Assembly (NCBI GenBank): GCA_963828495.1
Contig: CAWHFJ010000009.1
Location: 31,166-95,165, forward strand
Reading direction: 5' to 3'
Length of the DNA: 64,000 nt
Origin: Candidatus Omnitrophota bacterium
GTDB lineage: Bacteria; Omnitrophota; Gorgyraeia; Zapsychrales; Fredricksoniimonadaceae
The position numbers are program-made. Below, piece by piece: positions 23,501 to 29,500 of this stretch (positions are counted from its first letter, which is position 1; each line of letters starts with the position of its first letter).

Positions 23501-26500
23501 GCCCCCCTATTTCCCAACGTTGAATATTTATATGGCCTCCTCTTCTGACATTAATGCTCACAAATTTTGGCAAACAAGAGGATTTTAAAAGTATTTTTTT
23601 ATTTCTATGCTATACTGATGTTCGTTTAAATTCTCGTAACATATTCTCAAGGACCCAGTTATGATGAAAAATCGTTTTATCAAATTTATCCGGGTGTACT
23701 GGAAGGGCATTTTAATTTATGCCGCTTGCGCAGGGCTGGTAGCTTTCATCATTATTTTTATCTATTACGGCTCAGTCAGTTTCTTAGGGATGGAAGGATT
23801 CTACCGCAAAAACTTAATGGCCAATTTGGGCATGTATATGGTGATGTTTCTGGTTGTAGGCGTTGTCCAAGGCGTGCTCTTTTCTTATTTCCAAATGTAT
23901 TTTATGATGGGCGGCGGCATGAACAAGATGCTCAGCAAAGACAGCGCTGAAAAGGGCACATCCGAGATCAAATGGGATGATGTCATAGGCATGGAAAACG
24001 CCAAACGCGATGCCTGGGAAATTGTCCAGTTTATCAAGGATGCCAGCAAGGTCAAAGCTATCGGCGGCACCATGATCAAAGGGGTTCTGATGGTAGGGCC
24101 TCCGGGCTGCGGGAAAACCTACTTGGCCAAAGCTATGGCCTCAGAATGTAAATTGCCTTTTCTTTCGGCGGTAGGCAGTGAATTTGTGGCGATGTATATG
24201 GGAATGGGCGCCGCCCGCATCAAGTCCCTGTTTAAAAAAGCCCGCCAATTAGCCGCGGTCGAAGGCGGCTGTCTTATTTTTATCGACGAAATTGATTCTT
24301 TTGCCGGCCCGCGCGCGCAAGAAACCGGCGGCGGAGGGACCACCTCGACTAATGCCACGGTCAATCAATTTTTGACCGAACTCGATGGTTTAAGAAAACG
24401 TGAAAACAATATCGTGGTCATCGCCGCTACCAACGTGCCGCCGGAAAAATTAGATACGGCCATCATGCGCTCAGGCCGCTTTGACCGTAAAATCAGCATT
24501 GATAAACCCACCGCTAAAGAACGCGAAGCCCTGATTGCGTATTACCTCAAGAAAGTCGCTGCCGATCCGGCCATTGACATACCCACTATCGCGGATAAAG
24601 CCCAATGGTTCTCTCCGGCGGACATCAATAATATGGTCCGTGAGGCCAGCATCCATGCTTTACGTGAAAAACGTACGTCCGTGACCCAGGATGACATGAT
24701 CAATGCCTTGAATGTCGTCATGGTGTCCATCGAAAAAACAGGTGAAGATAAAGTGCTCTCTTCCAAAGTCAACGTAAAATGGGATGAAGTCATCGGCATG
24801 GAAGAGACTAAAAAAGACGCCTGGGAAATCGTAGAATTACTCAAGGACAGACACAAGTTGAAAGTCGTAGGCGGACAAATCATCAAAGGCGTTATGCTGA
24901 TCGGGCCTCCGGGTTGCGGCAAAACTTATTTGGCCAAGGCCATGGCCACAGAATCAGGGTTTCCCTTTGTAGTGGCTTCCGGAAGCGAATTCAGTATCAA
25001 ATGGGTAGGCGAAGGAGCTGCTAAAGTTAGAAAAATTTTTAAAGAAGCCCGTGATCTGGCCAGGTCTGAAGGCGGCTGCATTATTTTTATTGATGAAATT
25101 GACACCTTCGCAACACCCCGCACAATCGAGGGGGAAGGTTATGGCGGGGCGGTCATGGAACATACTACCACGATCAACCAGTTCCTCACGGAACTGGATG
25201 GATTAAAAGGTGAAAACACTAATATTGTTGTCCTCGCGGCCACCAATGTGGCTGAAGAAAAATTAGACCCCGCGATCATGCGTTCAGGCCGTTTTGACCG
25301 CAAAATTTATTTTCAAAAACCATCTGCTAAAGACCGTCAATTGCTGTTGAAACATTATATGACCAAGATTAAATGTGAAGACAACATTGACGTCGCGGCC
25401 CTCGCGGAAAAAGCCAAATGGTTTTCTCCCGCAGACATCAACAATATGGTCCGCGAAGCGGGTATCCTGGCCCTCCGGGAAAAAAGAGAAATTATCAATC
25501 AACAAGATATGGAAACCGCCCTGCAGCGTGTCATGCATTCTGTGGAAGTCATGGGAGAAAATAAGATACTGGGCGGAAAAGTCAATGTGAAATGGGAAGA
25601 AGTCATTGGCATGAAAGACGCCAAAGAAGAAGCCTGGGAAATCGTCAAATTGTTAAAAGACAGGAACTTGCTCAAGGCTATCGGCGGAAAGATTGTCAAA
25701 GGGGTCATTATGTTCGGGCCCCCGGGTTGCGGCAAAACATATCTTGCCAAAGCCATGGCCACGGAAGCCGGATTTCCTTTTATGTCCGCCGTGGGCAGTG
25801 ATCTGGTAGGCATTTATGTAGGTGAAGGTGCCCGCAAAATGAAAGATATTTTTAAAGAAGCGCGAGAATTGGCCAAAGCCGAAGGCGGCTGCATCATCTT
25901 CTTTGACGAAGTGGATTCTTTCGCTATGCCTCGCGGCACAGACAGCGGCGGCGGGGGGATGACTTCTCATAATGCCACCATAAACCAATTCCTCACCGAA
26001 CTAGACGGTCTGCGTCAGCAGGAAAATAATATCATTGTTCTGGCGGCCACCAATGTCAGGGAAGATCAATTAGACTCCGCTATTTTGCGCGCCGGACGCA
26101 TTGAACGCAAAATATATATCAGTTTACCCAACTTGCAAGAACGTGAAGAACTTTTTAAATTTTATCTCTCCAAAGTTAAATATGAAGACACCATCAGCCC
26201 ATCTGTGCTGGCCCGTACAGCGGTCGGATTTACTCCCTCAGATATTGATAATATGATCCGGGAAGCAGGCCTTATTGCCATGCGTAATAACCGGGACGTC
26301 ATCATCCAGAAAGATCTTTCTGAATCCTACGACCGCCTAACCATGGGCGCCGTCACCAACGCTAAATATACCCAAAAATCTCTCAAAAAAACAGCCTACC
26401 ATGAGGCCGGCCATGCCATTCTCACCTATTTAGTTGATCCGACCGACGAAGTGATCAAAGCGACCGTTCGGCCGAGAAAAGGGGCCTTGGGATATATTTA

Positions 26501-29500
26501 TACCCGCGCCATAGAAGAATTGGAATCTAATTCGCCCAACCGTGAACATTTATTATCCAAAATAAAAATGATGATGGCCGGTTACGTGGCAGAAAAAATA
26601 GCCCTGGGAACAACCGGCTCCGGAGTAGGCGGAGGTCCGGGCAGTGATTTCTATCATGCCATGACTATTGCGTCCCGCATGGTTTGGAGCTTAGGCATGG
26701 GGCCTTCCGGCCTGGTAGGTGATTTTGACGCACTTAAAGACAACAACGGCCGGCATAATATTTCAGAAAAAACCAAGGAAGTCTTAGACAACGATGTGCA
26801 AAATATCCTGCAATTGTGCCTAAAAGGCACCACTGAAATCTTGACTCAACACAAAGATGTGCTTGAATATTTTGCCGATGAGCTATTAAAAAAAGGTGAT
26901 CTGGAATACGATGAAATGAAATTAATCTTCCAGAAATTTGATCTCAAACCAGCCGCTCAGATAGAAACACCCTAATCAATGCGTTTGAGTAAACTATCTA
27001 AAATTCTATTAATTATATTTATCGGAATAAATTTAAGCTGTACGCCTAAAAAGGCCCTGTTCCCGCGTCCGGCGTTGACGGAACTGCAAAAAAAATACGA
27101 AACCAAATGCCGCAAAGACTATAAACTCAATGTCATCACCCGGATGGTCAACAAGACCTTCTGGATCTACGCGCCGACGGACAAGCCGCTTTTTGATTTT
27201 GCGGCGGAGTCACCCACGCCCCCCAACCCCACCAAAAAACCGGCCAAATACGATTTGCTTTATATCAACGGGACATTTAAAAACAACGCGTTTAATTTTG
27301 AATATGATATCGTCCCTAAAATTAAATCCAACGTGCAAAGTGAAGGCGTGCGTAACGAAGGCACGGATTATTTTAATAAACTCTATAATAATTTGTTTAC
27401 CGCCATCACCGAAACCCTGCTGGATCCCCATACGCCCATCTCTTTTATTGTGATGGTCATCACCGACATTAAAAAAGGCCTTGAAATCCGCTATACATTC
27501 TATTTAGAAGACTACCGCATGGCGTCTGTGGAGGGGCTCCCCTATGACGAATTCGGCAAACGCATCCTGCAAGAATCCAAAGGCAGTACGGATTATATCG
27601 GGGACCAAATCGGCCAACATTTGGAATACACCGACATTAAGATGCCGGAGTTTTTGACCAAACAAATGGTCAACCGTATCCGTTTTAAATTTACCCAAAG
27701 CGATTTCCCGCCGCAGGAGAATTATGAAGACGCTATCATCGGTATCATTGCCGATACCACCCGTTATTATCATTTTAAAGACTTCCTTGAGGTGCGCACC
27801 AACGATTTAAGGACCAAAAAGAAGATGATTTTTACTCCGGGCCAACTGGATCTTTTTCGGCGAGGATAGGCCTAAAACGGAAGGAAAATCCAAAGGCAAA
27901 CTTATTCATATCATCTTCGAAAACGGCAAGGCCACCTTCAAAGAACAATAACTTTCCTACCTACGATTTTTAATTTTCCGCGTACAAACAGGTCAATGGC
28001 CTTAGGGTACAGGCGATGTTCGGCTCTGTGAATTTTTTCTCAAGAGTCTCCAGAGTATCCTGAGATTTCACGCGCACGGCCTCCTGCAGAATGATCATGC
28101 CCGAATCCACTTCATCGATGACAAAATGCACCGTCGGACCGGTGATAGCGACCCCATAGGCGAAGGCGTCCTTGATGGCGTGCAGGCCTTTAAAGGCGGG
28201 CAGCAGGGAGGGATGAATATTAAGAATTTTGTCAGGGTATTGCCGTAAAAAAACGCTGCCCAACAGCCGCATATACCCGGCCAGCACAACAAAATCTATG
28301 TTGAATTTCCGTAATTGAGCAACAATCTCCCTGTCAAAGGATTCCCGATTACTGAAATCTTTAGGGTTAATATATACGGCAGGGATTTTGGCCCGATGGG
28401 CACGTCGGAGAGCATAGGCATCTTCCCTGTCGGAAATAACCACTTTTAAATCCGCTTGAATTTGGCCATGCCTAACCGCCTTAATGATGGCCTGCAAATT
28501 ACCGCCATGGCCTGATGCCAATACCGCAAAGTTCATAGAATTTCACCCTCCCCTATCCCCTCCCCTCAAGGACGGGAAATTTCTTCGACGGGGTTAAATT
28601 TTAATAAACCGATCAGTCCCACTATCATAAATACACCCCCCACCGTTATTAAAATCCAAAGGCGGTCGACATGCTCGGTTAACATGGCGCTGGTCAGCAT
28701 GGCCACCACAAATGCCAAATGCATGACAAATTCCAGGGCGGCAAAAACTTTTCCCGACATGGCCATGGTACAAACCTTATTGACGACGGTGTTGGACGCA
28801 ATCACCACAGGCCCCACCACAAAACCCAACACGAAGGATAATCCCAACGCCAAGAAACGATTATGGGTGGACTCGACCATAGACGTAAACAAAACAACCA
28901 TGGCCCCTCCTAATATCAGCGACCAAAAAATAACTTTAAAAGCCGCGACCCGGCTCCCCCACTTTCCATAAGATAGACTCCCCAGAAATAACCCTAACCC
29001 CAACGGTACGGCCAGAAAACCCAAATCCTTAGTCACGCTATGAAAAGCCTGTTGAATAAACACAATAATAACGACATAAATCGCTCCGGCCGCGGCAAAA
29101 AGGATCGACATCATCCAAAAAATAAACCCAATTTCTTTCTGCGAACGGATATAACGGATCCCATTGATCATTTCCTGCCAAACGCTCTTTTGAGACCGCA
29201 GCATTTCCTGGGTGCCGGCGATCATCTCACTTCTATTCGGCAACCTGCGCTGCAAGGTCGCGATAGAAAAAACTAAAAGGCCGGAGAGAAAATAACACAC
29301 GGCATCCCAAAGGAATCCTCCGAAAGACCCGGCATACTCCACAATCAATCCCCCCAATAAGGCCCCCAAGACTAAAGCGATCATGCCGGTGGTGGTCACT
29401 AAAGAATTCGCAATATGCAAATCATCCTCATGGACTATCTCCGGGATAAAGGACATCTTGGCCGGTACATAAAAACGGCTAAAGGAAAAAATGACAAACA

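What the first reader, a model, noticed from the sequence alone, without database searches (positions are those of the whole stretch)
23661..26975. FtsH-family protease with three complete tandem AAA+ modules before a single M41 peptidase domain
Canonical FtsH has two TM helices, a ~70-aa periplasmic domain, ONE AAA+ module and an M41 zinc peptidase. Here one 1104-aa ORF encodes two TM helices with only a ~15-aa loop, three consecutive full AAA+ units and one M41 domain. Each AAA+ unit (~270 aa, starting ~23958, ~24765 and ~25578) has an FtsH-type N-terminus, Walker A GPPGCGKT, Walker B (I/L)IF(I/F)DE(I/V)D, sensor-1 ATN, second-region arginines R(S/A)GR(F/I)(D/E)R, an aromatic-hydrophobic-Gly pore loop and the helical lid. 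The M41 domain carries HEAGH. All three modules look catalytically competent. The repeats are clearly diverged at both DNA and protein level, so this is not a collapsed or expanded assembly artefact of identical copies. I know of no described FtsH with three AAA rings or modules. A dimer would supply six AAA units in one ring, or a hexamer could stack three rings over one protease chamber. Either architecture is mechanistically novel.
Basis: partly seen in the sequence, partly recalled or inferred. Interest (0 to 1): 0.92.

Follow-up and report, generated by a model that had tools for sequence, protein, structure and literature searches.

The report
FtsH protease with three ATPase modules
This gene encodes a membrane-anchored FtsH-type protease with three working ATPase motor modules in a row instead of one. 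It belongs to an undescribed family in Omnitrophota bacteria whose orthologues carry 1, 2, 3, 4 or 6 such modules, probably stacked as rings over one protease chamber.

Summary
ORF 23661-26975 (+) encodes 1104 aa: two TM helices with a short loop, three AAA+lid modules and one M41 peptidase. All catalytic motifs are present.

It is not an assembly artefact. The modules share 52-59% amino-acid identity and each has dN/dS below 0.1. A 98%-identical independent contig is collinear, and dozens of three-module orthologues exist.

The gene sits in a conserved Omnitrophota locus: enolase | FtsH-like | ~300-aa lipoprotein | PurN | MFS. Orthologues at this locus carry 1, 2, 3, 4 or 6 AAA modules. Unrelated lineages duplicated the module independently, for example in Thermoleophilaceae and in proteins that keep FtsH_ext.

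The evidence favours coaxial stacked rings over a planar ring built from two chains:
- Module spacing and the AF2 protomer resemble p97, VAT, NVL and Rix7.
- Four-module orthologues exist, and module number changes often.
- M41 constraint is unchanged in multi-module forms.
- Where a module has decayed, its own Arg fingers decay with its own Walker B and sensor-1 (13 of 14 cases), while the M41-proximal module stays intact.

No paper describing this was found. Databases call these proteins only 'AAA family ATPase' or 'FtsH'. I rate it a new variant of a known kind. Oligomeric state and function are untested.

The parts
23661..26975 (+). Complete ORF of 1104 aa plus stop codon: a multi-AAA FtsH-type protease
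   Evidence: ORF list; Pfam 3xAAA, 3xAAA_lid_3 and 1xPeptidase_M41; TIGR01241, 941 bits
23661..23945 (+). N-terminal membrane anchor, aa 1-95. Basic N-terminus, TM1 about aa 16-37 (23706-23771), a ~15-18 aa loop, TM2 about aa 55-83 (23823-23909), and a Gly-rich tether. No FtsH_ext domain.
   Evidence: Hydropathy; no Pfam hit in aa 1-100; AF2 predicts two long helices, 2-42 and 46-82
23946..24755 (+). AAA module 1 ('first' type, membrane-proximal), aa 96-365. Walker A 146, Walker B 205, ATN 256, RSGRFDR 270, pore loop Y179-M-G.
   Evidence: Groups with the first modules of all family members in NJ trees, but bootstrap is only 16%. dN/dS 0.076.
24756..25565 (+). AAA module 2 ('internal type A'), aa 366-635. 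Walker A 415, Walker B 474, ATN 527, RSGRFDR 541, pore loop W-V-G.
   Evidence: The internal-A clade also contains module 3 of the 4-module proteins and modules 3-5 of the 6-module protein, with 95% bootstrap. dN/dS 0.086.
25566..26375 (+). AAA module 3 ('last' type, protease-proximal), aa 636-905. Walker A 686, Walker B 745, ATN 796, RAGRIER 810, pore loop Y-V-G.
   Evidence: The last-module clade has 54% bootstrap. dN/dS 0.046.
26376..26972 (+). M41 zinc metallopeptidase domain, aa 906-1104. HEAGH 914-918, E978 as third zinc ligand, D996.
26979..27869 (+). Conserved downstream gene, 296 aa, a predicted lipoprotein (signal peptide, Cys21 present in at least 90% of homologues). It starts 4 nt after the FtsH stop codon. 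Function unknown.
19261..20531 (-). Enolase, the divergent upstream synteny marker of the locus. Here it is split into two ORFs by a frameshift.
   Evidence: Pfam Enolase_C; synteny
27970..29855 (-). PurN-like formyltransferase (27970-28536) and MFS transporter (28566-29855), the convergent downstream synteny markers
   Evidence: Pfam; synteny

Best explanation
The gene encodes a functional inner-membrane FtsH-type ATP-dependent zinc protease. It is anchored by two TM helices and has almost no periplasmic part.

The single AAA+ module of the ancestral Omnitrophota FtsH-like protein was duplicated internally, giving three modules in this protein. The most likely assembly is a homohexamer held together by the M41 ring, as in FtsH. 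Each module type would form its own six-membered ring: membrane-proximal M1, then M2, then M3 docked on the M41 chamber.

The result would be a coaxial three-tier unfoldase. A substrate tail would be gripped by three sets of aromatic pore loops and threaded into one proteolytic chamber.

Shown: domain content, motif integrity, purifying selection, orthology and variable module number. Inferred: the hexameric stacked geometry and the function. The likely function is membrane and cytoplasmic protein quality control, with more grip or processivity, or a longer required initiation tail, than one-ring FtsH.
For: Identity and integrity. dN/dS is 0.05-0.09 for every module and for M41.

Orthologue series. 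The locus enolase | FtsH-like | lipoprotein | PurN | MFS is conserved with n=1 (most GTDB species), n=2, n=3, n=4 and n=6. In a tree of last module plus M41, n=1 forms are basal and n changes at least ~15 times.

Evidence for stacking rather than a planar ring:
(a) Four-module orthologues occupy the same locus. The 6-module protein implies a past 5-module state, because modules 3 and 4 are 79% identical while module 5 is about 60% identical to both. These counts cannot close a six-membered planar ring.
(b) Walker A to Walker A spacing is fixed at 261-276 aa, mode 269. M1-M2 aligns in a single HMMER stretch to VAT D1-D2 with equal spans (101-628 vs 185-712). M2-M3 aligns likewise to Cdc48 D1-D2.
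(d) Conservation of M41 relative to the adjacent AAA module is the same in 1-module and multi-module orthologues.
(e) Cis and trans elements decay together. In the P0072 clade (7 sequences) the middle module lost Walker B, sensor-1, the pore aromatic and its own Arg fingers, while both flanking modules keep everything. Among 42 independent multi-AAA-M41 representatives, 13 of 14 modules with decayed cis motifs also lost their own Arg fingers, and the M41-proximal module is always intact. An Arg finger acts on the neighbouring subunit's ATP site. The pattern therefore fits rings made of one module type.
(f) Where the whole AAA-M41 unit is duplicated instead, as in P0106, the 1:1 AAA:M41 ratio is kept.
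Against: No oligomeric state was measured or modelled, because no multimer prediction was available.

The AF2 model has pTM 0.54 and linker pLDDT below 50. AF2 may also default to p97-like packing for tandem classic AAA modules.

Bootstrap support for the 'first' module clade is low, at 16%.

Observed module counts of 2, 3 and 6 do divide six, and no 5-module protein was seen among the top hits.

In the P0072 clade the second Arg (R273 equivalent) is retained, and 2 of 7 sequences keep the first Arg.

A six-tier stack for the 6-module protein would be a very long particle. Stacks of three or more AAA rings have no precedent that I know of.
Confidence: 0.6

Rival explanations
1. Planar pseudo-hexamer. 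Two chains (2 x 3 modules) form one six-membered AAA ring, as a covalently linked ring does in dynein, midasin or engineered single-chain ClpX. Only two M41 domains would sit beneath it. By the same logic, 2-module forms would be trimers and the 6-module form a monomer.
For: The common module counts 2, 3 and 6 divide six, and 5 was not observed among the top 120 homologues. All modules keep Arg fingers and Walker motifs, as an active mixed ring would need. The inter-module linkers are flexible in the model.
Against: Four-module orthologues sit at the same locus in at least 5 genomes or assemblies.

Module number changes at least ~15 times in the orthologue tree, and each change would alter oligomeric state and M41 stoichiometry. 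M41 shows no relaxation of constraint.

Cis-motif decay goes with decay of the same module's Arg fingers, not the neighbour's, while the last module stays fully intact. In an alternating planar ring this would leave the intact module without Arg fingers.

Module spacing and the modelled protomer match stacked D1-D2 ATPases.
Confidence: 0.17
2. Only M3 and M41 form the canonical FtsH-like hexamer. M1 and M2 do not form closed coaxial rings. They would act as flexible arms, an adaptor or substrate-recruiting ATPases, or they would assemble with other chains into separate rings.
For: Linker and tether pLDDT is below 50 and overall pTM is 0.54. The pore aromatic of the first module is replaced by I, L or V in part of the family. 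One clade has a dead middle module.
Against: In the window protein all three modules keep the pore-loop aromatic, Walker A and B, sensor-1 and both Arg fingers. Arg fingers are useful only in an oligomeric ring. Each module is under purifying selection comparable to M3. The linker length is fixed.
Confidence: 0.12
3. Assembly or annotation artefact: a mis-expanded repeat, or a fusion of separate genes through sequencing errors.
For: The window contains apparent frameshifts in enolase and a PHO4-like gene, so the assembly is not error-free.
Against: The modules are only 61-64% identical at DNA level.

An independent ENA contig is collinear over window 15297-34280 at 98.2% identity with no large indel.

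More than 30 three-module orthologues at 49-92% identity come from NCBI, JGI, ENA and Logan assemblies.

The single ORF is intact, with purifying selection in every module.
Confidence: 0.01

Closest known systems
Canonical bacterial FtsH (E. coli FtsH; T. maritima, Thermus and Aquifex structures; PDB 7vhp, 7tdo, 2ce7, 2dhr)
   Different: Three AAA modules instead of one. No FtsH_ext periplasmic domain, only a ~15-18 aa loop. Walker A is GPPGCGKT rather than GPPGTGKT. Fails the E. coli-type equivalog NF008004, 680 bits against a cut-off of 1008. A conserved lipoprotein gene lies downstream.
Type II classic-clade AAA unfoldases (p97/Cdc48, archaeal VAT, NVL/Rix7, Pex1/Pex6, NSF)
   Same: Tandem classic AAA modules about 270 aa apart. 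They align collinearly to D1-D2. The modelled protomer geometry is similar. In some relatives one ring is catalytically degenerate, as in NSF-D2 and Pex1/6-D1 (my knowledge) and as seen.
   Different: Three modules rather than two, and up to six in orthologues. Membrane-anchored rather than soluble with an N-domain. Covalently fused to a protease domain.
Hsp100/Clp double-ring partners of proteases (ClpA, ClpC with ClpP)
   Same: More than one AAA+ ring feeding a proteolytic chamber. This is the precedent for extra rings adding grip or anti-slip function (my knowledge).
   Different: In Clp systems the protease is a separate protein. D1 and D2 belong to different AAA+ clades. There are never more than two rings. 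A review states one or two AAA+ modules per subunit for AAA+ proteases (PMC7226402).
Dynein and midasin/Rea1 (six AAA+ modules in one chain forming one ring)
   Same: Many AAA+ modules in one polypeptide. This is the formal precedent for the planar-ring rival, especially for the 6-module orthologue P0001.
   Different: A different AAA+ clade, with degenerate modules, no protease and no membrane anchor. The evidence here argues against planar packing.
Chloroplast Ycf2-FtsHi / Orf2971-FtsHi motor (PDB 8xkv, 8xks, 8xqw)
   Different: These are hetero-hexamers of single-module subunits with inactive proteases, not tandem modules in one chain.

Membership tests
FtsH family (ATP-dependent zinc metalloprotease; TIGR01241) | Profile score above the curated cut-off | tested here: met
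   TIGR01241 scores 941 bits against a cut-off of 600, though three AAA stretches inflate the score. The E. coli-type equivalog NF008004 scores 680 against a cut-off of 1008, so it is not met.
FtsH family | C-terminal M41 peptidase with HEXXH and a third zinc ligand | tested here: met
   PF01434, E 3.6e-34. HEAGH 914-918. E978 aligns with the E. coli third ligand, and D996 is conserved.
FtsH family | Classic-clade AAA module with Walker A/B, sensor-1, SRH Arg fingers and an aromatic pore loop | tested here: met
   Present in all three modules.
FtsH family | Exactly one AAA module per subunit | tested here: not met
   Three PF00004 stretches plus three lid stretches. The review PMC7226402 gives one AAA+ domain as the common FtsH topology.
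FtsH family | Two N-terminal TM helices flanking a ~70-aa periplasmic FtsH_ext domain (PF06480) | tested here: not met
   Two hydrophobic segments are present, but the loop is only ~15-18 aa and aa 1-100 have no Pfam hit. The 1-module orthologues also lack FtsH_ext.
FtsH family | Homohexamer with a six-fold M41 ring | not testable with these tools
   No multimer modelling or biophysics was available. Indirect support: M41 constraint is unchanged compared with 1-module orthologues.
FtsH family | ATP-dependent proteolysis of membrane and cytoplasmic substrates | not testable with these tools
   Requires biochemistry.
Type II (double-ring) classic AAA ATPases (p97/Cdc48/VAT type) | Tandem classic AAA modules with D1-D2-like spacing and linker | tested here: met
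   Single-stretch phmmer alignments: 101-628 to VAT 185-712, and 371-889 to Cdc48 210-714. Module spacing mode is 269 aa.
Type II classic AAA ATPases | Modules of one chain stacked in coaxial rings | tested here: inconclusive
   The AF2 protomer resembles p97, NVL, VAT and Rix7 protomers. The cis/trans co-degeneration pattern fits homomeric rings. No assembly was observed directly.
Type II classic AAA ATPases | N-terminal substrate/cofactor-binding domain (double-psi barrel), soluble protein | tested here: not met
   The N-terminus is a two-TM anchor with no such domain.

The most novel reading that the evidence does not exclude
These proteins would be the first AAA+ machines with three or more coaxial ATPase rings. 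Omnitrophota would then hold a natural orthologous series of FtsH proteases with 1, 2, 3, 4 and 6 stacked rings over one protease chamber, in which ring number is an evolvable parameter. Ring number could set unfolding force or processivity, or set the length of polypeptide that must be fed in before cleavage, acting as a molecular ruler.
Probability: 0.5. Interest if true: 0.85.

Novelty: new variant of a known kind. Interest (0 to 1): 0.75.

Why it matters
FtsH is the only membrane-anchored AAA+ protease conserved throughout bacteria. It is regarded as a single-ring and comparatively weak unfoldase (my knowledge). AAA+ protease components are described as having one or two AAA+ modules per subunit (PMC7226402).

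A family in which orthologues at one locus carry 1, 2, 3, 4 or 6 intact modules is a ready-made natural experiment. It addresses what additional AAA rings contribute, a question still debated for p97 D1/D2 and for ClpA and ClpB.

If the stacked model holds, these would be the first assemblies I know of with three or more coaxial AAA+ rings. Independent duplications in other phyla suggest a recurrent selective advantage.

The practical point is that genome annotation currently hides these proteins under 'AAA family ATPase' or 'FtsH'.

Tried and rejected
- Exact look-ups of the window protein and of the identical downstream protein found no record. The source contig could therefore not be inspected directly.
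- The afdb50 fold library was not available. UniProt and AlphaFold DB annotation of the architecture was not checked.
- I could not establish whether these genomes also carry a canonical FtsH, or whether a 4-module genome also has a 2-module paralogue. All 80 best loci came from different assemblies. The flanks of 85 loci held no second FtsH gene. Names of the best canonical-type hits were uninformative.
- Seven literature searches found nothing on multi-AAA FtsH.
- Assembly artefact: rejected.
- Neutral or decaying duplication: rejected for this protein.
- Functional link to the upstream pilin-like genes: rejected as a general feature, because they are absent from the 4- and 6-module loci.

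
Full report
**1. What is in the sequence**

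ORF 23661-26975 (+) starts with ATG and encodes 1104 aa. Pfam finds three PF00004 AAA stretches, three AAA_lid_3 stretches and one Peptidase_M41 at aa 904-1087. NCBIfam's FtsH model TIGR01241 scores 941 bits in three stretches. The E. coli-type equivalog NF008004 stays below its cut-off.

Each module carries a full motif set:
- Walker A GPPGCGKT at aa 146, 415 and 686.
- Walker B at 205, 474 and 745.
- Sensor-1 ATN at 256, 527 and 796.
- The SRH arginines: RSGRFDR at 270 and 541, RAGRIER at 810.
- An aromatic-hydrophobic-Gly pore loop: YMG, WVG and YVG.

Each module is 38-39% identical to the E. coli AAA module. The M41 domain has HEAGH 914-918. It also has E978 at the position of the E. coli third zinc ligand, and D996. 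Both residues are invariant among 36 homologues.

The N-terminus has two hydrophobic segments, about aa 16-37 and 55-83, with a loop of only ~15-18 aa. It gives no Pfam hit, so there is no FtsH_ext domain. No other FtsH-like gene lies in the window.

**2. It is not an artefact**

- The modules share 52-59% amino-acid identity and 61-64% nucleotide identity. Third codon positions are near saturation at ~43%.
- Against the closest GTDB orthologue (L007, 85% aa identity), dN/dS is 0.076 for M1, 0.086 for M2, 0.046 for M3 and 0.065 for M41.
- An independent ENA contig (L087) is collinear with window 15297-34280 at 98.2% identity with no large indel. In that contig the gene is broken by small frameshifts.
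- More than 30 three-module orthologues at 49-92% identity come from NCBI, JGI, ENA and Logan assemblies.

**3. The family**

The 120 best homologues are named, where a name exists, as Candidatus Omnitrophota/Omnitrophica 'AAA family ATPase' or 'cell division protease FtsH'. By motif counting, their architectures are:

| Walker A motifs | HExGH motifs | Proteins |
|---|---|---|
| 2 | 1 | 71 |
| 3 | 1 | 34 |
| 4 | 1 | 6 |
| 6 | 1 | 1 (P0001) |
| 2 | 2 | 1 (P0106, AAA-M41 twice) |
| 3 | 0 | 6 (no HExGH motif) |
| 2 | 0 | 1 (no HExGH motif) |

Pfam confirms 6xAAA+M41 for P0001, 4xAAA+M41 for P0007, 2xAAA+M41 for P0053, and AAA+M41 for the 1-module forms P0233 and P0241. P0001's real start is probably 43 codons upstream, which restores the first TM helix. 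Its most similar module pair is 79% identical.

A scan of GTDB species genomes found at least 565 relatives. Nearly all are titled Omnitrophota or are placeholder-named MAGs. Most of the best 80 are 1-module proteins of ~560 aa with Walker A at ~145, meaning the same short anchor.

**4. The different module counts are positional orthologues**

The arrangement enolase (divergent) | FtsH-like gene | ~300-aa predicted lipoprotein | PurN | MFS (convergent) recurs for every module count:
- n=1: for example L020-L032.
- n=2: L006, L013, L014.
- n=3: the window, L007, L008, L010.
- n=4: L004.
- n=6: L002.

In a neighbour-joining tree of last module plus M41 rooted on E. coli, 1-module forms are a basal grade. 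Two-module forms follow, and 3-, 4- and 6-module forms are nested within them. Fitch parsimony needs at least ~15 changes of module number, a few of which come from truncated ORFs.

Module trees put all first modules together and all last modules together. The window's middle module groups with module 3 of the 4-module proteins and modules 3-5 of the 6-module protein. Bootstrap support is 95% for this internal clade, 54% for the last modules and only 16% for the first modules. The protein therefore grew, and sometimes shrank, by gain and loss of internal modules.

**5. The architecture arose elsewhere too**

An exhaustive HMMER search of 1.84 billion representatives used M3+M41 as the query. 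It found dozens of 33-39%-identical clusters with 2xAAA+M41 and several with 3xAAA+M41:
- P0237 is a cluster of Thermoleophilaceae MAG proteins.
- P0235 is FtsH_ext+3xAAA+M41.

Their modules mostly cluster within each protein, which points to independent duplications. None carries a specific name.

**6. Stacked rings or one planar ring?**

Six lines of evidence favour coaxial stacking in a hexamer.

(a) Four-module orthologues cannot close a planar hexamer. The 6-module protein also implies a 5-module intermediate.

(b) Module spacing is tightly fixed at 261-276 aa, mode 269. It equals that of stacked D1-D2 ATPases. M1-M2 aligns in one stretch to VAT D1-D2 with identical spans. M2-M3 aligns likewise to Cdc48 D1-D2.

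(c) The AlphaFold2 model has pLDDT 78.5 and pTM 0.54, with low-confidence linkers. It places consecutive modules as in protomers of double-ring ATPases.
- Foldseek: TM 0.72-0.79 normalised to ~545-residue p97/Cdc48 D1D2 chains.

(d) M41 is no less conserved, relative to the adjacent AAA module, in multi-module than in 1-module orthologues.

(e) Cis and trans elements decay together. Arginine fingers act on the neighbouring subunit's ATP site.
- In the P0072 clade the middle module lost Walker B, sensor-1 and its pore aromatic. It also lost its own first Arg finger in 5 of 7 sequences and the third Arg in 7 of 7. Both flanking modules keep every element.
- In 42 independent multi-AAA-M41 representatives, 13 of 14 modules with decayed cis motifs also lost their own Arg fingers. 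The M41-proximal module is always intact.
- In an alternating planar ring this would strip the intact module of its Arg fingers. In homomeric stacked rings it simply produces one dead ring.

(f) When the duplication includes M41, as in P0106, L086, P0232 and P0238, the 1:1 AAA:M41 ratio is kept. This is what in-plane expansion would require.

The weaknesses are real. Nothing was measured. The AF2 inter-module geometry may reflect training bias. The counts 2, 3 and 6 do divide six. I put the stacked model at about 0.6 and the planar ring at about 0.17.

**7. Likely mechanism (inferred)**

The N-terminal helices would hold a hexamer at the inner membrane. A substrate tail would enter the M1 ring next to the membrane and be passed through M2 and M3 by ATP-driven pore-loop staircases. 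The six M41 sites would then cleave it.

Three active rings should give more grip and less back-slipping than one-ring FtsH. They should also require a longer unstructured segment to reach the protease. In relatives with a dead internal ring, that ring would be a passive spacer.

**8. Comparison with what is known, and novelty**

The protein is FtsH-like in sequence, anchor, AAA clade and protease. It fails two family features that were tested: a single AAA module and the FtsH_ext domain. It resembles p97, VAT and NVL in tandem-module spacing, but it is membrane-bound, fused to a protease and has three modules.

Seven full-text searches found no description of such proteins. A review gives one AAA+ domain as the FtsH topology and one or two modules for AAA+ protease components (PMC7226402). 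The library lacks most subscription-journal papers, so a prior mention cannot be excluded.

I rate it a new variant of a known kind, with interest 0.75.

Noticed in passing
window 19261-20531 (-) and 29852-30853 (-); L087: Enolase is split into two overlapping ORFs, and a PHO4/PitA-like transporter into three. The 98%-identical ENA contig L087 has even more breaks: enolase in 3 pieces and the FtsH gene in 4. This suggests indel-prone assemblies rather than pseudogenes.
   Followed up: partly
[not shown]
   Followed up: yes
window 20690-23588 (+): A pilin or pseudopilin-like gene cluster (N_methyl, PilX_N, DUF4900; some ORFs overlap or look frameshifted) is inserted between enolase and the FtsH-like gene. 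It is present here and in L006, L013 and L087, and absent in the 4- and 6-module loci L004 and L002.
   Followed up: partly
P0106 / L086 2622-5663; P0232; P0238: FtsH relatives in which the whole AAA-M41 unit is duplicated in tandem (AAA-M41-AAA-M41). A trimer of these could give a pseudo-hexamer with a 1:1 AAA:M41 ratio.
   Followed up: partly
P0240 (2124 aa), P0245, P0256, P0261, P0294, P0351: Proteins with 5-7 FtsH-like AAA modules. No HExxH motif was found in them, and Pfam confirmed the lack of an M41 domain only for P0240 (5xAAA). Several have N-terminal hydrophobic segments. Taxonomy and function are unknown.
   Followed up: no
P0072, P0073, P0076, P0077, P0079, P0083, P0096 (L009-L011): A clade of 3-module orthologues in which the middle module keeps Walker A but has lost Walker B, sensor-1, the pore-loop aromatic and part of its Arg fingers. 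It is presumably a nucleotide-binding but inactive spacer ring.
   Followed up: yes
window 40001-44000 and 56001-58000: Low-GC stretches (0.36-0.39, against ~0.46 elsewhere) carry genes for a GDSL-lipase-like protein, a carbamoyltransferase, DUF2079 and a PMT_2 glycosyltransferase. These are probably a surface-glycan gene set.
   Followed up: partly
window 15015-18455 (-): A 1146-aa protein with a GDSL-like lipase/acylhydrolase domain. The rest of the protein has no Pfam assignment.
   Followed up: no
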